DNA of 57,927 bases, from assembly GCA_964532735.1 (NCBI GenBank), contig CAZHKK010000003.1, forward strand, positions 1-57,927, in the 5' to 3' direction. The position numbers and the translations under genes were made by a program. Origin of the DNA: an uncultured Gammaproteobacteria bacterium. Lineage in GTDB: Bacteria > Patescibacteriota > Patescibacteriia > JAGPKW01. The notes beneath the pieces are model-generated. The model worked only from the letters and a program-made list of their open reading frames with translations. It had not been told where the DNA came from and did no database searches. Within the stretch, counting starts at the first letter, position 1, and every line of letters starts with the position of its first letter. Shown here piece by piece: positions 4,564-54,467 of this stretch.

Positions 4564-4926
4564 TTACTCTTTTAATAAATCAAATAAAGACTCTTTTTTT
4601 ATAGGCTTATCTAAATAAAAACCATTCAATTCTTTTATCTTATTTATATATTTTTGAATATTAGATGAAATAAAAACTACATTTTTTATTTCTTTTTTTG
4701 CTTTTATTTTTCTTATCATATCAATACCATTCATATCTGGCATTTCTATATCAGTAATTATAAAACTATAATCATTTTTTAATATATCACAAAAAGCATC
4801 TTTTGATTTTTCTCTATAATCAGCCAATATATTTAATTTTTTAAACATAAACTTAAACGAATTTAACACAAGCATATCATCATCTATAACGATTATATGC
4901 TTAGTCGCGTTGGATTTTTTTATCAT
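4564..4926 (-). CDS. Stand-alone response-regulator receiver (CheY-like) protein
   Basis: 120 aa. Acidic pocket IDDD, phospho-acceptor context IITDIEMPDMNG, then VFISS and DKP (conserved Ser and Lys). No output domain. Confidence 0.85.
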   Translation of the reverse strand: MIKKSNATKHIIVIDDDMLVLNSFKFMFKKLNILADYREKSKDAFCDILKNDYSFIITDIEMPDMNGIDMIRKIKAKKEIKNVVFISSNIQKYINKIKELNGFYLDKPIKKESLFDLLKE

Positions 4927-13970: not shown

Positions 13971-14741
13971 TTATATATTTTTTTTTATTATTTCTAATAT
14001 TTTTAAATTATCCTCATCTTTCTCTATATTTTCTTTTATTAAATCAATTGCTTCATTTTTTGAAAAACTTTTTCTATAAGGTTTTTCTGAAATAAGAGCA
14101 AAATATTTATCTAAGATTAATATTATTCTAGAAGATTTACTAGCTTTACATTTTTTCATATTAGATAAATAACATTCATTAATATTATTATTTACATCAA
14201 TACAAATATCTATTATTTGTTTTCCAAATTTTAAATTTTCCAAAACATCTTTTGTATAAAAAACTTGTTTTTCAAGAATTAATTTATCACCATCTTCTAA
14301 TATTACATTTTTATCAAATAATATTTTTGGAATTAATAATTTTCCTATGTTATGAACCTTAAATGACATTTTAAATATTTTTTCTTGAGCCATTGGGTTT
14401 CCTATATTTATAAAAGGATAATCTAGCTCTTTTAATATTCTTTCTATTAAAATATCTATATGGGAATATAAATTTATTTTTATAGAAGAATCATATATAC
14501 ATAAATATTTAAGTAAAACATTAGTTTTAAATTCTATATTTAAAAATATTTCATCAAATTTTTTTAACAATCTAAAAGGTTCATCATCTGTTTTTAAACC
14601 TACGCTATTTATTCTTTTCTCTTCTTTTTTTATTAATTCTAAGAATATATTACACAATTTATTTGTTGCATCATTTTGCAACCATTCATATTTTATTTTT
14701 ACTTTTTCTACAAAGTAATTATTTTTATTTTCTTCAAACAT
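13971..14741 (-). CDS. Degenerate HD-GYP-like domain protein
   Basis: VHNIGKLLIPKILFDK in place of HDIGK..iP..iL.K. The C-terminus LDKYFALISEKPYRK resembles DvfDALts.R.Yr. The HHE..DG.GYP segment is absent. Confidence 0.5.
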   Translation of the reverse strand: MFEENKNNYFVEKVKIKYEWLQNDATNKLCNIFLELIKKEEKRINSVGLKTDDEPFRLLKKFDEIFLNIEFKTNVLLKYLCIYDSSIKINLYSHIDILIERILKELDYPFINIGNPMAQEKIFKMSFKVHNIGKLLIPKILFDKNVILEDGDKLILEKQVFYTKDVLENLKFGKQIIDICIDVNNNINECYLSNMKKCKASKSSRIILILDKYFALISEKPYRKSFSKNEAIDLIKENIEKDEDNLKILEIIKKNI

Positions 14742-40077: not shown

Positions 40078-40197
<120 letters not shown>

Positions 40198-40295
40198 TTA
40201 GTTTCCAGCTATTGAAGACTTGTAAACTTAAAATTAAATAGAGATTTAGAATAGTTTAATGTAGCATTTATTAACCAAAGAATTTCATCATTATT

Positions 40296-43264
<2,969 letters not shown>

Positions 43265-43661
43265 ACAAGAATAACGAAATTCTTGTTTATTCTCTCGAAT
43301 GTTATTTTAAAACATATTTAAGTAACAATATATGAGAAATTACATATATTAATTAATACTTTTTACTCGCTTTCTTATAGGTAGACTTAGACCTATAAGA
43401 AATATTCTAAATTCACTCTCTATTTAATTTTTAATCTACAAATCTTTAACAACTGAATTTAGGCTAAAACATTTTTTAGACTATGTCAAATGTTAAATTT
43501 AGACAACAAAAAATAACCAATAGCATTTATTATTATAAAAATTGTGATAATAGCAAATGCTTAGAGGTTATTAATAATTTATTATAACTTAAGCGTTCTG
43601 GTTTTCCTACTTTTGTTTTCTTATTTTTTGGATGTTAAGTATTATAGTCTAAAAAATTTTT

Positions 43662-44885
43662 TTAGTCAATACCCCATTTTTTTATGATGTTATCAACATC
43701 AATTTCTGGCTTTTTTTTGCATAAATTTTTAATAGATTGAGATAAAACTATTTCGTATAAAACTTTCTCTCTTGGGTCTTTTTTTTCTGAAAAAATTATT
43801 TTATTTGTTTTTATCATAGACCTTTCTATTTCTTCTGAAATTTTTTTAAATTGTTCATTTTCGTCTTCAGAATAATCCAAAACCTTTGATATCATAAGCT
43901 TAACATTGTTTATTTTTTTTGTAAAAGAAGCATACCCATCAAAAATATTTTTGATCTTATCATTATCTTGAGACATTTTATATAATTTTGTTAAAAAATA
44001 TATTTTTGAAGTTTTCTTTTGATAATCAGATCTTATATCCGCCAATTCTACAATTATTTCTCTTTTTTCTTCTACAGATAATTTATAATCCAAGTTTATT
44101 CTTCTTATTTCTAATTCTTTTTTTAATTTTTCTTCTATTTCTTTTAATTCTCCATCGTTAGCGTATCCTGTATCTATATGAAAAAATATTTTATTTAAAA
44201 TATCAAAACTCTTATCAAATTTAAAATTGTTAAAATTTAATTCAATTTTATCTATTATATCTTTCGTTTTTATTGATTTACCTTTAAAAGATTCTAGTGT
44301 TTTTTCTATTATTCTAGATGAAGCATATATAGCTTGATCTCCTCCTTTGTGCCCGTATAATTCATTAAAATAATTTAAATACATAAGATCAATAAAAACA
44401 ACTTCTACTCCTATATCTCTACTGATAACAATTACAAATTCATCTCCACCATATCTGTAAATTTCAATATCATTAATGTTTGAACTATTTAATTTTTCTG
44501 TTTTTTCTCTTTTTATTATCAAATTTGTAAGGTGATGATAGCAAAGTTTTTTAATTTTAAGACCACTAACTTCATCTAATGAAAGTTTTTGTATTATATT
44601 ATTAATTTCTCCTAAAAAAACTCTTAATTTAAAAGAACACCTACTATTTTCTTCTAAAAAATTTTTTATTAAAATTATATTTTCTTTATTTTCTTTGTTT
44701 TTTTTAATATCTCTTTCTATTTCATTAAAAGCTTCAAAAGCTTCCATTGTTAATTCGTGTATACTATTTGATTTATTATAAAAATCCAACAAATCTAATT
44801 CTGTTTGTTTTATGTTTATTCTTTTATTACTATCTAAATCAATACCTTCTTTTTTGTTATTTTTTTTGAAATCAAAAAAAGCCAT
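43662..44885 (-). CDS. GGDEF-like protein with reversed motif order plus coiled-coil C-terminal region
   Basis: DEVSGLKIKK (D.LTGL.NR-like), RYGGDEF at aa 144-150, then FIDL..FNELYGHKGGD at aa 164-183. The order is opposite to canonical GGDEF domains. Confidence 0.6.
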   Translation of the reverse strand: MAFFDFKKNNKKEGIDLDSNKRINIKQTELDLLDFYNKSNSIHELTMEAFEAFNEIERDIKKNKENKENIILIKNFLEENSRCSFKLRVFLGEINNIIQKLSLDEVSGLKIKKLCYHHLTNLIIKREKTEKLNSSNINDIEIYRYGGDEFVIVISRDIGVEVVFIDLMYLNYFNELYGHKGGDQAIYASSRIIEKTLESFKGKSIKTKDIIDKIELNFNNFKFDKSFDILNKIFFHIDTGYANDGELKEIEEKLKKELEIRRINLDYKLSVEEKREIIVELADIRSDYQKKTSKIYFLTKLYKMSQDNDKIKNIFDGYASFTKKINNVKLMISKVLDYSEDENEQFKKISEEIERSMIKTNKIIFSEKKDPREKVLYEIVLSQSIKNLCKKKPEIDVDNIIKKWGID

Positions 44886-44953
44886 TATTTTAAACCTTTA
44901 TTTTTAATATTTTAAATTATATCATAATATATAAAAAAGAAAAAAGAAAATAA

Positions 44954-45820
44954 TTACAAATTATTTTCTTTTAATGTTAAGCTTGCTAATTTAATTGCTG
45001 AATTTTTTGTTATCGTACTAGCAATAAAACCATTAGCATGACAAAAAATAAAATCATCTATTCCAGTCATTTCAAACAATTTTTCTTTTGTTTCTCCTCT
45101 CCATTGTTCTTTTAATCCTATCCTATTTTCAAAAGAATTAAGTTCTTTTGGGATCATTCTAACCATCCATTTTTCTTTATTTTTTTCTGGATATATAACT
45201 ATTAAATTATCTGTTTTTATTATTTCTTCTTGCCAATTACAATATTCATCCAAAACAACTATTTTATTTTTTGCATTTAAAATTGCATCATTTACTATTT
45301 CCTTTGATAATAATATTGATTTTTCTTTTTCTATTTTTCTTAAAATTATTTTTTGAGCCACCTTTACTATTTTTAAAAATTCTTTATCATAATCCATTTT
45401 CTCATTCCAATTTGGATTAAATAAACCAATAGTTTCCGATATTGATATACTAAAATCATTTTTGTTTGGATTATAACCACTATCTATTGCATCTATATAT
45501 TTAACAAAATTTTCATCAATTCTATTAACTATTTCTTTGTTACCACATAAATTAATTCCAAATTTTTTCCATATTAAGCCAAAAGAAGCATAAGGATAAC
45601 CATCTAATCTTTCCCCTGCTCTTCCAAATTGATGATGATCAAAATATTTTTTACCATCATATTCCCCCCCAACATCAAAAACAATATCACCTTTTTTAAA
45701 ATATTTTTCTTCTCTTGTTCTTATTATTTTTGAGTTTTTAAAAATTAATTTTAAAATAGCTGCTGAAAAAACATCGTCTGCATGAAAAGTATTATTGTGT
45801 GTAACTAATAACATAATCAA
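44954..45820 (-). CDS. MYG1/UPF0160-family metal-dependent phosphoesterase
   Basis: N-terminus THNNTFHADDVFSAAIL and an internal DHH motif (YFDHHQ), typical of MYG1. Confidence 0.8.
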   Translation of the reverse strand: MIMLLVTHNNTFHADDVFSAAILKLIFKNSKIIRTREEKYFKKGDIVFDVGGEYDGKKYFDHHQFGRAGERLDGYPYASFGLIWKKFGINLCGNKEIVNRIDENFVKYIDAIDSGYNPNKNDFSISISETIGLFNPNWNEKMDYDKEFLKIVKVAQKIILRKIEKEKSILLSKEIVNDAILNAKNKIVVLDEYCNWQEEIIKTDNLIVIYPEKNKEKWMVRMIPKELNSFENRIGLKEQWRGETKEKLFEMTGIDDFIFCHANGFIASTITKNSAIKLASLTLKENNL

Positions 45821-45832
45821 CTAAATTACTAA

Positions 45833-47170
45833 TTAGATTGCGTTTTTTATTGTATCATATTTCGGATATTTTTCTAAACCTAAAAACAAAAAAAACATAA
45901 TTAAGCCAAAATATTCTGTCCAAATAAAATGATCAAAAATACTAAATAACAAAATAAAAATAAAAGAAATAATAATTTTAAAATCTTTATTAAAAATAAA
46001 CTTATTTAATATTAATGCTAGATATAATACAAAGGAAAATAATCCTAATTCTAAAAATACTAACAGATAAACATTGTGTATTGGTTTTAAGTCCCAAACA
46101 TTTAATTGTTTATTTTCGTTTAATTTGTTTATTGCATAATTTCTTCCTCCAATTCCTACTAAATATTTTGTTTTTATATTTTTAATAAAATCTTTAATTT
46201 GGTAGATTCTTTCATTTGTTGATTGTAAAACTAATCTATTATTATTATCAACTCTAGAAGCTAAAATATCTATTGAAGGAAAAGATATTGATAATAGAGT
46301 AAAAATTAATATTAAAAAAATATTAAAACCAGTTTTATATTCTTTAATATTTTTATTTTTAATATATTCATAAAATTTATAAAATAAACAGCAAATAAAT
46401 AAAATTAAAAATAAAAATATTGAGATTCTTGAAAAAGTAAATAATAGTCCTAAAAAATTTATACCAAATATATATATATAATATATAATTTTAAAATCTA
46501 TTTTTTTAGTTTCTAATAACTCTTTATTCTTTTTATGGTCCATTATTTTTATCAATATAAACAATAAACCTATCAGTAAAAATAAACCAAGCATATTTGG
46601 ATGAGGGAACAAACCATAACTTTTTAATATCCTTCCAAAATTACCTTCTATTACATAAGTTCCTAAATTATAAGATAATTGCTCAGAAACTCCTAAAAAT
46701 TTATTTGAATAGATAGATTGTATTATAAATTGATATATAGAAAAAAAAGCTTGAATACTAGAGCTTATTATAAAACAATTCATAAACCAATTCATATTAA
46801 TCTTGTTTATAAAAATAATAAAAGAAAAAGTAGATAATATTAATATATTTATATTGTTATATATAGAAACCGATTTATCTGTTGAAAAAAATGTTGACAA
46901 CAATAAAGATAAATTAAATAGAATTAATAATATTAAAAATATTTTTGCCTTTTTTTCTAAATAAATTTTATTTTTAAATGAAAAAATTATTCCATACACA
47001 ACAAATAAAACAACCAATAAATTTAATAAGTATATCGATATTGTCCCATACTCAAAAAAATTATTATTTATTTTTTCTGTTATTAAAAAATATCTTGTCT
47101 GTAAAGGAAGCAAGATTATTATTATCAAAAACAATATATTAAAAAATTTTTTTGTAAAAATACTATTCAT
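45833..47170 (-). CDS. O-antigen ligase/polymerase-like (Wzy_C) polytopic membrane protein
   Basis: More than 10 TM helices and a central loop ...PHPNMLG...FSRIS... pattern. Confidence 0.6.
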   Translation of the reverse strand: MNSIFTKKFFNILFLIIIILLPLQTRYFLITEKINNNFFEYGTISIYLLNLLVVLFVVYGIIFSFKNKIYLEKKAKIFLILLILFNLSLLLSTFFSTDKSVSIYNNINILILSTFSFIIFINKINMNWFMNCFIISSSIQAFFSIYQFIIQSIYSNKFLGVSEQLSYNLGTYVIEGNFGRILKSYGLFPHPNMLGLFLLIGLLFILIKIMDHKKNKELLETKKIDFKIIYYIYIFGINFLGLLFTFSRISIFLFLILFICCLFYKFYEYIKNKNIKEYKTGFNIFLILIFTLLSISFPSIDILASRVDNNNRLVLQSTNERIYQIKDFIKNIKTKYLVGIGGRNYAINKLNENKQLNVWDLKPIHNVYLLVFLELGLFSFVLYLALILNKFIFNKDFKIIISFIFILLFSIFDHFIWTEYFGLIMFFLFLGLEKYPKYDTIKNAI

Positions 47171-47172
47171 AA

Positions 47173-48105
47173 CTACTCTTTTATTTTTTCTAAAAATAAA
47201 TTTTGGAAATATTTTCTATTATTATTGTTATGCAACTTTATCATTGTGTCATCAACATAAACGTCTTCTGTATTTCCTTCTTGTATTATTTTTTTAATAC
47301 TTAATGGAAACATTTTCATTTCTATTTTTTTTGAAATTTTATTAAATAAATTTATTGAAAATACTTTTGTTATTTTTCTAATTATTTTTTTATAAAACTT
47401 ATTCTCTATAGATCTTTTATACCCAGTTTTATATTCAAATATATTTGATATTTTTTCTCTTGACCAAGAATTTTCAAAAATAAATCTTGAATATATACTG
47501 CATGGATCAAATATTGGAACTACTTGATTTATCCAATAAATATAATATATATCGTCCTGAGAACAAACTTTTTTTAGATTCAAATTTTTTTCATCTAAAA
47601 ATATCGTTAAACATATTTTATCTTTTTTAGATTTTTCTGTAGGCCTCAAGTTTAAAAACTGAGCAACTAAAACTAAAATCATTCTTGCTAACCAAATTCT
47701 ATTTTTTTTAGTTATCACAAATAAATCTATATCACTATCGTTTCTTGCATTGTCTATAGACATACTATTTGCTATAAAAACAGCTTTTATAAAATTAAAA
47801 TTAGATATAAAATTTATAAATTTTATTCCATTTTTATATTTTTTATAACTATGAAAATAATTATTTTTTCTTTTTTCAACAATAAAATCTCTATTTTGTA
47901 AAAAATAAAATGAGTCTTTTTGACTTATTTTTGTTTTTAAAAAATTACTATTATCAAGACAATACAAAACATCTTTTAATTCTATTTTATATTTAGAATA
48001 TAAATTTTTCCATATTTCGAAACTTGTTAATGGAAAATTAAAAATATCAAAATAAATAATAGTATTAAATATATTTTTTTCTAAATCAATACACATATTA
48101 GACAA
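47173..48105 (-). CDS. Hypothetical protein with Pol-beta-type nucleotidyltransferase motif
   Basis: ANSMS....NDSDIDLFVIT resembles the GS...DxD minimal NTase signature. The remainder is unassigned. Confidence 0.45.
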   Translation of the reverse strand: MSNMCIDLEKNIFNTIIYFDIFNFPLTSFEIWKNLYSKYKIELKDVLYCLDNSNFLKTKISQKDSFYFLQNRDFIVEKRKNNYFHSYKKYKNGIKFINFISNFNFIKAVFIANSMSIDNARNDSDIDLFVITKKNRIWLARMILVLVAQFLNLRPTEKSKKDKICLTIFLDEKNLNLKKVCSQDDIYYIYWINQVVPIFDPCSIYSRFIFENSWSREKISNIFEYKTGYKRSIENKFYKKIIRKITKVFSINLFNKISKKIEMKMFPLSIKKIIQEGNTEDVYVDDTMIKLHNNNNRKYFQNLFLEKIKE

Positions 48106-51917: not shown

Positions 51918-54467
51918 TTATATAACAAAATTTATCATTTTATTTTTTACAAATATTATCTTTTTAATATTTTGTCCATCTAAATATTTCTGTATTTTTT
52001 CATTTGATTTTAAAATTTCTTCTATATTTTCTTGGTCTATATCTCTAGAAACATTTACAATATCTCTCATTTTACCATTTATAGAAACTACAAATTTAAT
52101 TTCATTATCTTGTAATAATTCTTCTTTATATTCTGGCCAAGATTGTAAATGTATAGATTTTTCGTTTGGATTTAATTCTTTCCAGATTTCTTCAGTTACA
52201 TGAGGAGCAAAAGGAGCTAATAATTTAAGGTATATATTGTATAAATTTTTACTAATTTTATCTTTTGAATAAATATGATTTAGCAAAATCATTAATTGAG
52301 ACAAGGCTGTATGATAAGAAATATTTTCTATATCTTCTCCTACTTTTTTAATAGTTTTATGAAGTAATGAAATTGTTTCTTTGTCATCGCAGAACGAATC
52401 GCAATTCACTCCTACATCTACCTTTTCTTGAAGAGACCAAACTCTATTTATAAATCTATTTACACCATTAATTGCCGTTGTAGACCAAACACCACCTTCT
52501 CCGTATGGCCCCATAAACATTATATAAGTTCTCATTGTATCTGCTCCATATTGTTCTATTACATCATCTGGATTAATAACATTACCCCATCTTTTACTCA
52601 TTTTTCTTCCATCTTCTCCCATTATAAGACCATGCTGAACTCTTCTTTTGTATGGTTCTGATAATGGAACAACCCCTGCATCATAAAGAGCTTTGTTCCA
52701 AAATCTTGAATACAATAAATGAACTGTTGTATGTTCTGCTCCACCAAAATATATATCAACTGGCATAAAATGTTCTAACTTATCCCTAGAAGCTAAGGTA
52801 CTACTATTGTTTGGGTCTATATATCTCAAGAAATACCAAGAAGATCCAGCCCATTGAGGCATTGTATTTGTTTCACGTTTTGCATCTGCACCACATTTTG
52901 GACAAGTAGTATTAACCCATGAATCTATAATTGCAAGAGGAGATTCTCCTGTTCCTGTTGGTTCATAGTTTTCAACATCTGGAAGTAATAATGGCAATTC
53001 TTTTTCTGGAACTGGAACATTACCACATATAGGACATTTTATTATTGGAATTGGTTCACCCCAATATCTTTGTCTTGAAAATAACCAATCTCTAAATTTA
53101 TAATTTATTTTTCTTTTACCAAAATTATTTTCTTCAGCAAATTGAATCATTTTTTCTCTTGCTGTTTTAGAATCTAATCCACGATATTCAGAATCACAAT
53201 TAAATAAATACCCTTCATTTAATAAAGCTATTTTGTCTTTAATACTTTCTGCTAAAAGTAACGATAAAAATTTATCATCCCTACCTTTTATATTTTCAAA
53301 AGTTAATTCAAACGTTCTCCATTCTTCAGAATTATCTTCATTGATTTTATATAAATAAGAATAACTAGGACTATTTAATATAGTATATTTTATTGTTAAA
53401 TTATATTTTTTTGCAAATTCCATATCTCTCTCATCATTTGCTGGCACTGCCATTACAGCTCCTGTTCCATAAGAACCAAGAACATAATCCGCAATCCATA
53501 CTTCTACTTTTTCTCCATTAAATGGATTTATTGCATAGACTCCTTCAAGTTTTACTCCTGATTTATCTTTATTTAAATCTGTTCTTTCAAGATCTTTTTT
53601 ATTTTTTGCTGTTTCTATATATTTTTCAACATCAGAAATATTTTTTATTGATGATTTTAAATTATCAATAATTTTATTTTCTGGGGCTAATACTACATAT
53701 GTGCAACCAAAAATCGTATCTACACGTGTTGTAAATACTTTTATTTTTTCGTTTGAATTTTCAATTTTAAATTCTATTTCAGCGCCCTCAGATTTTCCTA
53801 TCCAATTCTTTTGACTAGTTTTTATATATTCTGGCCAATTTACATCATCAAGATCTTTAATAAGTTTTTCTGCATAATCAGTGATTTTAAGAAACCATTG
53901 CTTCATATTTCTTTGTTCTACATCACTATCACATCTTTCGCATTTTCCATTTATTACCTCTTCGTTTGCAAGACCAGTTTTACATGATGGACACCAGTTA
54001 ATTGGAGCTTCTTTTTCATAAGCTAACCCCATTTCAAACAATTTTAAAAATATCCATTGAGTCCATTTATAATATTTTGGATCTGTTGTATCTATTTCAC
54101 GAGACCAATCAAAAGAACAACCAAATTTTTTGATTTGTTTTCTAAAATTGTTTATATTTTCTTGTGTAAATAATCCTGGATGTTTCTTATTCTTAATAGC
54201 AAAATTCTCTGCTGGTAAACCAAAAGCGTCCCAACCCATTGGAATTAAAACATTATAACCATTCATTCTTTTATATCTAGCAAAAACATCTACTGCATTA
54301 TGTCCTTTGGCATGACCAACATGAACCCCTGCCCCAGATGGATAAGGAAACTCTACTAATGTATAAAACTTTTTCTTTGTTAAGTTGTCACTAGTTTTAT
54401 AAACTTCTTGCTTTTCCCATTCATCTTGCCATTTTTTTTCTATTTTTTTATGATCATATTTTTTCAT
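51918..54467 (-). CDS. leuS: Leucyl-tRNA synthetase
   Basis: HVGH (HIGH) and KMSKR (KMSKS) motifs and a CP1 insertion. 849 aa. Confidence 0.95.
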   Translation of the reverse strand: MKKYDHKKIEKKWQDEWEKQEVYKTSDNLTKKKFYTLVEFPYPSGAGVHVGHAKGHNAVDVFARYKRMNGYNVLIPMGWDAFGLPAENFAIKNKKHPGLFTQENINNFRKQIKKFGCSFDWSREIDTTDPKYYKWTQWIFLKLFEMGLAYEKEAPINWCPSCKTGLANEEVINGKCERCDSDVEQRNMKQWFLKITDYAEKLIKDLDDVNWPEYIKTSQKNWIGKSEGAEIEFKIENSNEKIKVFTTRVDTIFGCTYVVLAPENKIIDNLKSSIKNISDVEKYIETAKNKKDLERTDLNKDKSGVKLEGVYAINPFNGEKVEVWIADYVLGSYGTGAVMAVPANDERDMEFAKKYNLTIKYTILNSPSYSYLYKINEDNSEEWRTFELTFENIKGRDDKFLSLLLAESIKDKIALLNEGYLFNCDSEYRGLDSKTAREKMIQFAEENNFGKRKINYKFRDWLFSRQRYWGEPIPIIKCPICGNVPVPEKELPLLLPDVENYEPTGTGESPLAIIDSWVNTTCPKCGADAKRETNTMPQWAGSSWYFLRYIDPNNSSTLASRDKLEHFMPVDIYFGGAEHTTVHLLYSRFWNKALYDAGVVPLSEPYKRRVQHGLIMGEDGRKMSKRWGNVINPDDVIEQYGADTMRTYIMFMGPYGEGGVWSTTAINGVNRFINRVWSLQEKVDVGVNCDSFCDDKETISLLHKTIKKVGEDIENISYHTALSQLMILLNHIYSKDKISKNLYNIYLKLLAPFAPHVTEEIWKELNPNEKSIHLQSWPEYKEELLQDNEIKFVVSINGKMRDIVNVSRDIDQENIEEILKSNEKIQKYLDGQNIKKIIFVKNKMINFVI

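What the first reader, a model, noticed from the sequence alone, without database searches (positions are those of the whole stretch)
43662..45820. GGDEF-like protein with reversed motif order, paired with a MYG1-type phosphoesterase
Seen in sequence:
- The 407-aa ORF carries an unmistakable RYGGDEF (aa 144-150, nt about 44436-44456).
- It also has a D.LTGL-like lead-in (DEVSGLKIKK, aa 104-113).
- The segment that normally comes before GGDEF sits after it here: FIDLMYLNYFNELYGHKGGDQAIY at aa 164-187. That segment comprises the beta-1 strand with the metal-binding acidic residue, plus FK.iND.yGH..GD.
- A SiGva-like strand (FHIDTGYA) follows.

The palm-domain elements are therefore all present but in the order GGDEF hairpin, then DxD/alpha1-alpha2. 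I do not know this order from canonical diguanylate cyclases (for example PleD) or from Cas10/mCpol palms. The C-terminal ~200 aa are coiled-coil-like with no sensor domain.

The next gene downstream on the same strand is a MYG1-family phosphoesterase, a DHH-motif family. By analogy with DHH/DHHA1 enzymes that degrade linear dinucleotides, the two could form a synthesis/turnover pair for a nucleotide signal.

Elsewhere in the window there is an orphan receiver protein (4564-4926) and a degenerate HD-GYP-like protein (13971-14741). Inference: this may be a rearranged nucleotide cyclase/polymerase of unknown product in a reduced genome.
Basis: partly seen in the sequence, partly recalled or inferred. 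Interest (0 to 1): 0.75.

Follow-up and report, generated by a model that had tools for sequence, protein, structure and literature searches.

The report
GGDEF cyclase with a transposed active-site hairpin
A small, rare protein family from ultra-small (Patescibacteria/CPR) bacteria is a diguanylate-cyclase-type enzyme whose catalytic GGDEF hairpin has moved in front of the strand it normally follows, the same rewiring known from birnavirus-type RNA polymerases, whereas its proposed pairing with the neighbouring MYG1 gene is not conserved.

Summary
The 407-aa ORF (43662-44885, minus strand) has RYGGDEF at aa 144-150, followed by the beta1/alpha1/alpha2 segment (aa 160-199) that normally precedes it.

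- **Profile evidence:** both pieces match GGDEF profiles independently and out of order. Moving the 25-residue hairpin in silico to just after alpha2 raises the best single-stretch score from 22.9 to about 61 bits, with a sharp optimum. It also turns two profile-profile alignments (70.0 and 64.6) into one (136.2).
- **Conservation:** about 30 orthologues, down to 39% identity, keep the order and the catalytic and guanine-binding residues. Three distant relatives have the canonical order.
- **Structure:** AlphaFold (pLDDT 86.5) predicts a beta2-beta3-beta1 meander. The top 19 PDB fold matches are all diguanylate cyclases.
- **Best reading:** a probably active, coiled-coil-dimerised diguanylate cyclase with an internally permuted palm. 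This parallels the C-A-B palm of birnavirus and permutotetravirus RNA polymerases.
- **MYG1:** the gene lies upstream, not downstream. It is present only in the sub-clade with at least 55% identity and absent in the other, so the synthesis/turnover pair is unsupported.

No paper describing a permuted GGDEF domain was found. I rate it a new variant of a known kind, of moderate interest.

The parts
43662..44885 (-). Gene for the 407-aa permuted GGDEF protein
   Evidence: ORF. About 30 full-length orthologues of 402-408 aa, 39-100% identical. Pfam GGDEF at 32 bits.
44580..44813 (-). N-terminal antiparallel helical hairpin (aa 25-102), the presumed dimerisation stalk
   Evidence: AF2 helices H25-57 and H64-102. 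Top fold matches are coiled-coil-plus-GGDEF cyclases SiaD and DgcB. No Pfam match. The dimerisation role is inferred.
44502..44576 (-). alpha0 lead-in (aa 104-128), DEVSGL = D-x-LTGL equivalent
   Evidence: Aligns to GGDEF profile column 3 onward once the hairpin is relocated. hhalign pairs D.VS.Lk.rr with D.LTgLyNRr. D104, S107 and L109 are invariant.
44418..44477 (-). Transposed beta2-beta3 active-site hairpin (aa 137-156) carrying RYGGDEF (aa 144-150)
   Evidence: AF2 strands E137-144 and E149-156. Matches canonical HMM columns 76-100, i-E 7.8e-6. R144, G146, G147, D148, E149 and F150 are invariant. The relocation scan places its canonical home after aa 193-201.
44289..44408 (-). beta1-alpha1-alpha2 segment (aa 160-199) with metal-binding D166 and guanine-binding N174 and D183
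   Evidence: AF2 E160-167, H170-177, H179-197. Pfam profile columns 33-72. D166, N174, G181, G182 and D183 are invariant. Residue roles are assigned by alignment to canonical cyclases plus established PleD knowledge, recalled from memory.
44157..44267 (-). alpha3 region and beta4 (aa 207-243; FHIDTGYA = SiGva strand)
   Evidence: AF2 H207-219, H225-232, E237-243. hhalign pairs vd.GyA with SiGia. G240 and Y241 are invariant.
43971..44075 (-). Long helix aa 271-305 with LADIRSDYQKK, equivalent to the canonical C-terminal AD-x-ALY-x-AK helix
   Evidence: Global hhalign aligns lAD.Rs...K with AD.amY.aK after a 24-residue insertion. R285 and K290 are invariant.
43677..43961 (-). Family-specific C-terminal helical bundle (aa 309-403), function unknown
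   Evidence: AF2 helices at pLDDT about 90. No Pfam match. Shared with the canonical-order relatives P0044, P0049 and P0053.
43641..43669 (-). Promoter-like TTGACT-17-TATAAT overlapping the gene's last codons and stop. Probably the 23S-5S rRNA promoter (context, not part of the enzyme).
   Evidence: 11/12 consensus match. Conserved in 9 orthologous loci, including one where the reading frame differs.
44954..45820 (-). MYG1/UPF0160 (DHH-type) gene immediately upstream. Neighbour only; not a conserved partner.
   Evidence: PF03690, E 1.1e-71, full length. Present at this position only in the sub-clade with at least 55% identity.

Best explanation
The 407-aa protein is a true member of the GGDEF nucleotide-cyclase superfamily. 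Its active-site beta2-beta3 hairpin (RYGGDEF) has been transposed from its usual place after helix alpha2 to a place just before strand beta1. This is an internal, non-cyclic permutation: [beta1-alpha1-alpha2][beta2-beta3] has become [beta2-beta3][beta1-alpha1-alpha2].

In an RRM-like palm the sheet order is 4-1-3-2 and beta3 pairs antiparallel with beta1. A three-residue turn from beta3 into beta1 therefore rebuilds the same sheet as a beta2-beta3-beta1 meander. All new junctions lie on the sheet edge away from the active site. The GGDEF turn, the metal-binding Asp at the end of beta1 (D166), the guanine-binding Asn and Asp (N174, D183) and the C-terminal Lys helix (K290) can then occupy canonical positions.

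The most likely function is diguanylate cyclase. Two palms would be brought together by the N-terminal helical hairpin, each binding GTP and Mg2+, to make c-di-GMP. There would be no product-inhibition I-site, because no RxxD lies upstream of GGDEF.

Shown here: the motif order, its conservation, the homology, and the predicted fold and strand order.
Inferred: the three-dimensional equivalence of the active site, dimerisation, the substrate, the product and activity.

The MYG1 gene is a lineage-specific neighbour within a strongly syntenic housekeeping region, not a functional partner required by the family.
For: **Non-collinear homology**
- Pfam, NCBIfam and PDB-sequence alignments map the two pieces in swapped order.
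- My HMM of 55 canonical domains gives two significant out-of-order hits in all 15 permuted CPR sequences aligned and in the distant permuted P0038. It gives one collinear hit in the canonical-order relatives P0044, P0049 and P0053.

**In-silico repair**
- Moving aa 133-157 to after aa 203 raises the Pfam score from 32.0 to 43.1 bits and the profile coverage from columns 33-72 to 3-113. For P0011 the score rises from 14.5 to 29.7, and for P0019 from 25.2 to 41.4.
- A scan of every insertion site peaks sharply after aa 193-201, at 59-61.6 bits. The native protein scores 22.9 and the hairpin-deleted protein 30.6.
- In hhalign the native family gives two alignments (scores 70.0 and 64.6). The repaired family gives one (136.2, E 3.5e-20).
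- The repaired broader alignment aligns globally over 199 columns, with probability 99.9% and E 4e-32.

**Selection**
- R144, G146-F150, D166, N174 and G181-D183 are invariant down to 39% identity.
- Invariant columns are enriched in aa 137-199: 25 of 63 versus 37 of 344 elsewhere, p 1.4e-7.
- Across the set at about 20% identity, the few invariant residues include the beta1 Asp, the Asn and the G-D-E of GGDEF.

**Structure**
- The AF2 model has pLDDT 86.5 and pTM 0.77, with pLDDT above 90 in the palm. It shows consecutive strands 137-144, 149-156 and 160-167, then two helices, and beta4 at 237-243.
- The distant homologue P0038 gives the same order of elements.
- The top 19 PDB fold hits are all diguanylate cyclases, led by the coiled-coil cyclases SiaD and DgcB.

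**Precedent**
- The permutotetravirus and birnavirus RdRp palm places the GDD hairpin (residues 350-352) before the motif-A Asp (D369). [quoted passage not shown]
- The Asp-to-Asp spacing there is 18 residues (D351 to D369). Here it is also 18 (D148 to D166).
Against: - No biochemical data exist for any member.
- The three-dimensional claim rests on AlphaFold secondary-structure order and topology reasoning. I could not obtain coordinates for a non-sequential superposition.
- Several canonical positions differ. The second Asp of DxD is Met168, the Lys of the FK motif is Asn171, and the His of GH is Tyr in part of the family.
- A 24-residue insertion precedes the AD...K helix.
- No c-di-GMP effector or phosphodiesterase was recognised in the 58-kb window. 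The HD-GYP-like protein looks catalytically dead, the PilB-like ATPase shows no MshEN motif by eye, and there is no c-di-GMP riboswitch.
- Only about 10% of a roughly 0.6-Mb genome was visible.
Confidence: 0.6

Rival explanations
1. The protein is a permuted GGDEF fold that is catalytically silent. It would act as a nucleotide-binding receptor or scaffold, as degenerate GGDEF domains do in other proteins, with the helical N- and C-terminal parts providing the real function.
For: - It departs from consensus at the P-loop-like DxDxFK segment (D-L-M-Y-L-N).
- There is a large insertion before the Lys helix.
- No partner c-di-GMP components were seen in the window.
- The genomes are extremely reduced, and a full c-di-GMP circuit has not been shown in them.
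Against: - Degenerate receptor-type GGDEF domains normally lose the GGDEF signature and the metal-binding Asp. Here these are the most strictly conserved residues of the whole protein, over orthologues only 39% identical and in relatives about 20% identical.
- The I-site RxxD, the usual c-di-GMP binding site of receptor-type domains, is absent (sequence).
Confidence: 0.2
2. The rewired palm makes a nucleotide product other than c-di-GMP, such as a linear or different cyclic oligonucleotide. The adjacent MYG1 DHH-type phosphoesterase degrades that product, so the two form a synthesis/turnover pair.
For: - The two genes are co-directional and 68 bp apart.
- The adjacency is kept in the window, L006/L007/L013, L012, L015 and L017.
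- MYG1 carries an intact DHH-type signature (FDHHQ by eye) and matches PF03690 over its full length.
- DHH/DHHA1 enzymes are known to degrade pGpG (established knowledge, not tested here).
Against: - MYG1 is missing from the same position in every locus of the 39-44% identity sub-clade. There Wzy_C abuts the GGDEF-like gene with a 45-64 bp gap.
- MYG1 is also missing next to P0038.
- The whole region from LeuRS to DnaA is syntenic in this lineage, so adjacency carries little functional information.
- The characterised MYG1 activity is 3'-5' RNA exonuclease (PMC6582341).
- The guanine-specifying Asn and Asp are conserved, which argues for the ordinary substrate.
Confidence: 0.1
3. The reversed order is an artefact: a chance heptapeptide, an assembly chimera, or two decayed tandem GGDEF domains with no intact palm.
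For: - Pfam aligns only 40 of 161 profile columns in the native sequence.
- Several orthologues fall below the Pfam cut-off (P0011 at 14.5 bits).
Against: - The same order occurs in about 30 independently assembled sequences from NCBI, JGI, ENA and Logan.
- Both pieces are individually significant.
- Together they sum to a single full-domain alignment when re-ordered.
- AF2 predicts one compact palm with pLDDT above 90.
Confidence: 0.02

Closest known systems
Canonical GGDEF diguanylate cyclases, especially coiled-coil-regulated ones (DgcB 6ttr, SiaD 7e6g, DgcZ 4h54, PleD)
   Same: - Homologous palm: hhalign probability 99.9% after re-ordering.
- Same signature residues: GGDEF, the beta1 Asp, the guanine-binding Asn and Asp, and the AD...K helix.
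- A helical stalk lies N-terminal to a D-x-LTGL-like lead-in.
- These are the best PDB fold matches.
   Different: - The beta2-beta3 hairpin precedes beta1 instead of following alpha2.
- There is no RxxD I-site.
- Met replaces the second Asp of DxD, and Asn replaces the Lys of FK.
- A 24-residue insertion lies before the Lys helix.
- There is an extra C-terminal helical bundle of about 100 residues with no known family.
Internally permuted (C-A-B) palm of Birnaviridae and Permutotetraviridae RNA-dependent RNA polymerases
   Same: - The same kind of rewiring of an RRM-like palm. The acidic catalytic hairpin (GDD there, GGDEF here) sits immediately upstream of the strand carrying the other metal-binding Asp.
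- The Asp-to-Asp spacing is 18 residues in both.
- It co-exists with canonical-order relatives.
- The polymerases remain active (PMC4666646).
   Different: - It is a different enzyme class, with no detectable sequence homology and no fingers, thumb or template.
- This is an analogy of topology and probably an independent event, not family membership.
Canonical-order relatives P0044, P0049 and P0053 (unnamed metagenomic proteins of 323-339 aa)
   Same: - They share the family-specific F-D-L-A-Y-L-x-Y-F-N beta1/alpha1 signature, the GH-x-GGD motif, the LAD-x-R-S...K helix and the helical C-terminal region.
- They align collinearly with the re-ordered window protein over their full length.
   Different: - The GGDEF hairpin is in the normal place, after alpha2.
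- They are shorter at the N-terminus.
- Their genomic context and taxonomy could not be retrieved.
MYG1 / UPF0160 DHH-type 3'-5' RNA exonuclease (for the neighbouring gene)
   Same: Full-length PF03690 match, E 1.1e-71.
   Different: - It is a bacterial (CPR) homologue whose substrate has not been tested.
- There is no evidence that it acts on cyclic or linear dinucleotides.

Membership tests
GGDEF domain (PF00990) diguanylate cyclase | Significant match to the family profile | tested here: met
   - 32.0 bits against a cut-off of 23.8, E 1.3e-7.
- hhalign against 55 canonical domains: native E 7.4e-10 and 5e-9 in two pieces; re-ordered E 3.5e-20.
GGDEF domain (PF00990) diguanylate cyclase | GG(D/E)EF active-site motif on a beta-hairpin | tested here: met
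   - G146, G147, D148, E149 and F150 are invariant in 15 sequences.
- They lie at the turn between AF2 strands 137-144 and 149-156.
GGDEF domain (PF00990) diguanylate cyclase | Metal-binding Asp at the end of beta1, and guanine-binding Asn and Asp in alpha1/alpha2 (PleD D327, N335, D344; numbering from memory) | tested here: met
   D166, N174 and D183 align to these columns and are invariant.
GGDEF domain (PF00990) diguanylate cyclase | Canonical element order alpha0-beta1-alpha1-alpha2-beta2-beta3-alpha3-beta4 | tested here: not met
   The order here is alpha0-beta2-beta3-beta1-alpha1-alpha2-alpha3-beta4. It belongs to the superfamily but is a topological variant.
GGDEF domain (PF00990) diguanylate cyclase | Palm (RRM-like) three-dimensional fold with the hairpin next to beta1 | tested here: inconclusive
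   - The confident AF2 model has the expected elements, and its top 19 fold hits are cyclases.
- Strand pairing was inferred from the 3-4-residue turns. No coordinates were available for a non-sequential superposition.
GGDEF domain (PF00990) diguanylate cyclase | Synthesis of c-di-GMP from two GTP by a dimer | not testable with these tools
   This needs an enzyme assay.
GGDEF domain (PF00990) diguanylate cyclase | Allosteric I-site RxxD five residues before GGDEF (optional feature) | tested here: not met
   The sequence upstream of GGDEF is NINDIEIYRY, with no RxxD.
Permuted-palm RdRp (Birnaviridae/Permutotetraviridae) | Catalytic hairpin (motif C) located upstream of the motif-A strand | tested here: met
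   The equivalent arrangement is present, compared with PMC4666646. This is analogy only.
Permuted-palm RdRp (Birnaviridae/Permutotetraviridae) | RdRp motifs B and D-G, and fingers and thumb subdomains | tested here: not met
   - The only Pfam family found is GGDEF.
- All fold matches with E below 0.05 (the top 19) are diguanylate cyclases; the weaker matches are ABC-transporter and other non-polymerase folds.
- It is not a member.
Cas10 / mCpol / defence-system cyclases | Match to Cas10, mCpol or defence-system profiles | tested here: not met
   - No PADLOC hit.
- No Pfam hit other than PF00990.
- The family signature is absent from viral contigs.
MYG1/UPF0160 (neighbouring gene) | Full-length profile match with the DHH-type motif | tested here: met
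   PF03690, E 1.1e-71, residues 5-283 against profile 2-318. FDHHQ is present by eye.
Cyclase / phosphoesterase signalling gene pair | Adjacency conserved across the family beyond background synteny | tested here: not met
   - MYG1 is present in distinct loci of the sub-clade with at least 55% identity.
- It is absent in loci of the 39-44% identity sub-clade and next to P0038.

The most novel reading that the evidence does not exclude
The transposed hairpin, the altered phosphate-loop residues (D-L-M-Y-L-N) and the family-specific C-terminal bundle change the geometry of the dimeric active site. The enzyme would then make a signal other than c-di-GMP, for example a linear pppGpG-type or a different cyclic oligonucleotide. 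In the sub-clade that carries it, the MYG1 DHH-type esterase would turn that product over. This would be a minimal, previously unseen nucleotide-signalling module in ultra-small CPR bacteria.
Probability: 0.1. Interest if true: 0.8.

Novelty: new variant of a known kind. Interest (0 to 1): 0.55.

Why it matters
- **Evolution of the palm fold.** This would be a natural, conserved example of an internally permuted nucleotide-cyclase palm. It would show that the beta-hairpin/beta1 rewiring known from birnavirus-type RNA polymerases has arisen independently in a cellular signalling enzyme. Canonical-order relatives are still present, so the evolutionary path (duplication and loss of an internal segment) can be studied.
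- **Annotation.** Standard profiles see only 40 of 161 columns, and several orthologues fall below the Pfam threshold. Such enzymes are therefore under-annotated, and c-di-GMP capacity in Patescibacteria may be underestimated.
- **Engineering.** The result suggests that the GGDEF domain tolerates this re-connection, which is useful for designing split or permuted cyclase sensors.

Tried and rejected
- **Reference-genome scan.** The scan with the family alignment was swamped by the ordinary RYGGDEF pattern.
- **Second large protein search.** Searching with the re-ordered alignment recovered only the same family plus P0038. It did not recover P0041, P0044, P0049 or P0053, so their genomic contexts could not be looked up.
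- **Flanking domains.** The N-terminal (aa 1-103) and C-terminal (aa 245-407) parts have no Pfam family.
- **Defence and phage links.** There is no PADLOC defence-system match for the cyclase, MYG1 or the two upstream genes. The family signature is absent from viral contigs. A defence or phage origin is rejected.
- **Candidate effectors in the window.**
  - The PilB-like ATPase N-terminus shows no MshEN-type c-di-GMP motif by eye.
  - The HD_5 protein lacks the HD and GYP residues by eye.
  - No c-di-GMP riboswitch was found.
  - Ten further ORFs are housekeeping genes or have no Pfam match.
- **Metagenome pattern hits.** Three of the ten hits were chance matches in non-coding frames.
- **Literature.** Searches for a permuted GGDEF domain found nothing relevant.
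- **P0038 model.** The AF2 model is only moderately confident (pLDDT 58.7 overall, 74-89 in the palm). It is used only as supporting evidence for the order of elements.
Full report
**What is there**

The interval holds two co-directional genes on the minus strand. One is a 288-aa MYG1/UPF0160 homologue at 44954-45820 (PF03690, E 1.1e-71). The other, 68 bp further along the direction of transcription, is a 407-aa ORF at 43662-44885.

Further upstream lie a Wzy_C-type gene (45833-47170) and a Pol-beta-like nucleotidyltransferase gene (47173-48105). Directly downstream lie the 23S and 5S rRNA genes (40295-43265 and 40078-40185).

The window has about 22% G+C. Its LeuRS is most similar to proteins named Patescibacteria group, Candidatus Falkowbacteria and Candidatus Gracilibacteria, at 64-68% identity. 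The organism is therefore a CPR/Patescibacteria bacterium. A 77%-identical orthologue lies on a 581,814-bp contig, which fits a very small genome.

**Check of the observation**

Every motif is at the stated residue. RYGGDEF is at aa 144-150 (nt 44436-44456). DEVSGLKIKK is at aa 104-113. FIDLMYLNYFNELYGHKGGDQAIY is at aa 164-187. FHIDTGYA is at aa 235-242.

Several independent results show that the order is reversed:
- Pfam's GGDEF profile matches only aa 160-199, to profile columns 33-72 (32 bits, cut-off 23.8).
- NCBIfam cyclase models hit the hairpin separately, at aa 127-156.
- A profile of the family aligns to solved cyclases in swapped order. Family positions 158-196 match chain residues about 31-67, and positions 140-153 match chain residues about 74-87. 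This holds for DosC 4zve, 4urg and 8c05.
- An HMM I built from 55 canonical GGDEF domains gives two individually significant, non-collinear hits in every member. In the window protein these are aa 131-155 = columns 76-100 (i-E 7.8e-6) and aa 160-198 = columns 44-82 (i-E 7.3e-8).

**In-silico repair tests**

I moved the hairpin (aa 133-157) to after aa 203 and re-scored against Pfam GGDEF.

| Protein | Native score | Re-ordered score | Re-ordered profile coverage |
|---|---|---|---|
| Window | 32.0 bits | 43.1 bits | columns 3-113, one stretch |
| P0011 | 14.5 bits | 29.7 bits | columns 3-104 |
| P0019 | 25.2 bits | 41.4 bits | columns 3-131 |

After the move, DEVSGL aligns to the D-x-LTGL lead-in.

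I then deleted the hairpin and re-inserted it at every second position between aa 100 and 323. The best single-stretch score was 22.9 bits for the native protein and 30.6 bits with the hairpin deleted. It peaked sharply at 59-61.6 bits, covering columns 7-140, for insertion after aa 193-201. That is the canonical site after alpha2.

Profile-profile comparison agrees. The native family gives two separate alignments, with score 70.0 (E 7.4e-10) and score 64.6 (E 5e-9). The re-ordered family gives one alignment with score 136.2 (E 3.5e-20).

A broader re-ordered alignment aligns globally with canonical domains over 199 columns, with probability 99.9% and E 4e-32. That alignment includes the C-terminal helix. 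There, LAD-I-R-S-D-Y-Q-K-K pairs with the canonical AD-x-ALY-x-AK after a 24-residue insertion.

**Conservation and distribution**

About 30 full-length proteins of 402-408 aa, 39-100% identical, come from NCBI, JGI, ENA and Logan assemblies. An exhaustive HMMER search of 1.84 billion cluster representatives found only 28 hits at E below 1e-3. A DNA-pattern scan of 241 million metagenome records found seven true loci. None was found in viral contigs. The family is rare.

The order and the key residues are invariant. These residues are R144, G146-F150, R156, G159, E161, D166, M168-N171, N174, G178, G181-D183, G240, Y241, R285 and K290. Invariant columns are concentrated in aa 137-199: 25 of 63 there, against 37 of 344 elsewhere (p 1.4e-7).

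Two distant proteins share the permuted order. They are P0038, from a contig with 49% G+C, and P0041. Three others, P0044, P0049 and P0053, share the family-specific F-D-L-A-Y-L-x-Y-F-N signature and the LAD-x-R helical C-terminus but have the canonical order. The transposition therefore happened inside one small GGDEF subfamily.

**Structure**

AlphaFold2 with the 15-sequence alignment gives pLDDT 86.5 and pTM 0.77, with pLDDT above 90 through the palm. The elements, in order, are:
- helices 25-57 and 64-102, forming a helical hairpin;
- helix 112-128 (alpha0);
- strands 137-144 and 149-156, with YGGD in the turn between them;
- strand 160-167 (beta1);
- helices 170-177 and 179-197 (alpha1 and alpha2);
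- helices 207-219 and 225-232;
- strand 237-243 (beta4);
- helix 245-260 and a long helix 271-305;
- a helical bundle extending to aa 403.

Three consecutive strands joined by 3-4-residue turns imply a beta2-beta3-beta1 meander.

In an RRM-like palm the sheet order is 4-1-3-2 and beta3 is antiparallel to beta1 (established fold knowledge). The meander therefore reproduces the canonical sheet, with only the connections changed.

Foldseek against the PDB returns only diguanylate cyclases in the top 19 hits. They are led by the coiled-coil cyclases SiaD and DgcB (E 4e-5 to 3e-2; TM normalised to the target up to 0.60). A second model, for the distant P0038, is weaker overall (pLDDT 58.7, but 74-89 in the palm) and shows the same order of elements.

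**Mechanism proposed**

The most likely function is a diguanylate cyclase. The following residues are conserved:
- the metal ligands D166 and D148/E149;
- the guanine-recognising N174 and D183;
- the arginine before GGDEF (R144);
- a lysine (K290) on the AD...K helix.

The residue roles are assigned by alignment to PleD-type enzymes, recalled from memory. The N-terminal helical hairpin plausibly forms the dimer stalk, as in the best fold matches. There is no RxxD I-site.

The following are shown: homology, motif order, conservation and the predicted fold. The following are inferred: active-site geometry, dimerisation, substrate, product and activity.

My confidence that this is a permuted GGDEF palm is about 0.9. 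My confidence that it is also an active c-di-GMP synthase is about 0.55-0.6.

Some caveats apply. Met168 replaces the second Asp of DxD, Asn171 replaces the Lys of FK, and His179 is Tyr in part of the family. In addition, no effector or phosphodiesterase was recognised in the visible 58 kb.

**MYG1 pairing**

The region is strongly syntenic in the lineage. The gene order is LeuRS, methyltransferase, RecQ, an unknown gene, a Pol-beta-like gene, Wzy_C, [MYG1], the GGDEF-like gene, 23S, 5S, RNase III, NusB, L32 and DnaA.

MYG1 occupies the bracketed position in the following loci:
- the window;
- L006, L007 and L013 (69% identity);
- L012 and L015 (77% identity);
- L017 (55% identity).

MYG1 is absent from that position in the following loci, where Wzy_C abuts the GGDEF-like gene with a 45-64 bp gap:
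- L001 and L019 (44% identity);
- L004, L005 and L018 (39% identity);
- L008 (40% identity);
- L011 (41% identity).

The distant permuted homologue P0038 has unrelated neighbours. Whether this pattern reflects gain or loss of MYG1 cannot be decided.

Characterised MYG1 is a 3'-5' RNA exonuclease (PMC6582341). The synthesis/turnover pair is thus unsupported, although a sub-clade-specific link is not excluded.

**Comparison with known systems and novelty**

The protein belongs to the GGDEF superfamily but fails one defining feature of the domain as described, the element order.

The closest functional analogy for the rewiring is the C-A-B palm of birnavirus and permutotetravirus RdRps. There the GDD hairpin (residues 350-352) precedes the motif-A Asp (D369), and the active site stays canonical (PMC4666646). 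The Asp-to-Asp spacing is 18 residues in both cases. This is convergence of topology, not homology.

Full-text searches combining GGDEF with 'circular permutation' or 'permuted' found no description of such a domain.

I classify it as a new variant of a known kind, with interest about 0.55. It is a neat and probably unreported structural-evolution case, with consequences for annotation in CPR genomes. It is not a new type of system.

**Seen in passing**

The gene's last codons and stop, (A/C)TT GAC TAA, form a TTGACT -35 box. This is followed by a 17-nt spacer and TATAAT (43669 to 43641 on the minus strand; 11/12 match).

The arrangement is conserved in all nine orthologous loci examined. That includes L008, where an extra G changes the reading frame so that the protein ends in WGY. 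This indicates constraint at the DNA level. It is probably the promoter of the unlinked 23S-5S rRNA unit, and it may partly explain the invariant C-terminal WG(I/L)D.

Noticed in passing
window 43641-43669 (minus strand); also L001, L004, L006, L008, L011, L015, L017, L019 at the gene's stop codon: The last codons and stop of the GGDEF-like gene, (A/C)TT GAC TAA, form a TTGACT -35 box, followed by a 17-nt AT-rich spacer and TATAAT. This is conserved in all nine loci examined, down to 39% protein identity. In L008 a frame change ends the protein in WGY, yet the DNA motif is intact. It is probably the 23S-5S rRNA promoter overlapping the gene end.
   Followed up: partly
window 40078-43265 (minus strand): The 23S and 5S rRNA genes have no 16S gene upstream; the GGDEF-like gene sits there instead. 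The same arrangement occurs in L001, L004 and L006. The short ORFs listed at 41782-42021 and 42996-43217 lie inside the 23S gene and are spurious.
   Followed up: partly
window 13971-14741 (minus strand): This 256-aa protein matches Pfam HD_5 (HD-GYP-related; E 1.7e-7). By eye it has HNIGK where HDxGK is expected and has no GYP motif. It is likely non-catalytic, and a role as a nucleotide sensor is untested.
   Followed up: partly
window 4564-4926 (minus strand): A stand-alone 120-aa response-regulator receiver domain (PF00072, E 3e-15) with no output domain. Its neighbours are a RadC-like gene, a CorA gene and two ORFs with no Pfam match.
   Followed up: partly
alignment A2 columns about 135-155 (proteins P0044, P0049): Two canonical-order relatives carry an insertion of about 20 residues between alpha0 and beta1. 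This is the place where permuted members carry the GGDEF hairpin. It may be a decayed relic of a duplicated hairpin, which would fit a duplication-and-loss route to the permutation. No sequence similarity is visible by eye.
   Followed up: no
proteins P0030 and P0031 (eukprot TRINITY_DN12447): A P0011-like copy of the family occurs in a eukaryote transcriptome assembly. P0030 ends in LLYTSPSPRDQA, which looks like a translated sequencing adapter (from memory). This suggests a CPR contaminant or associate of a protist culture and a chimeric contig.
   Followed up: no
window 51918-54467 (minus strand) and homologues P0120, P0122, P0134 and others: Many close LeuRS homologues are 940-960 aa long and carry an extra NUDIX domain (PF00293). 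The window's LeuRS is 849 aa without it, so this is a lineage-variable LeuRS-NUDIX fusion.
   Followed up: no
window 45833-48105 (minus strand): A Wzy_C-type gene (O-antigen ligase/polymerase-like) and a Pol-beta-like nucleotidyltransferase gene sit immediately upstream in every CPR locus of the family examined that extends far enough upstream, separated from each other and from the next gene by only 2-12 bp in the window. This could hint at a link to surface polysaccharide, but it cannot be distinguished from the general synteny of the region.
   Followed up: partly
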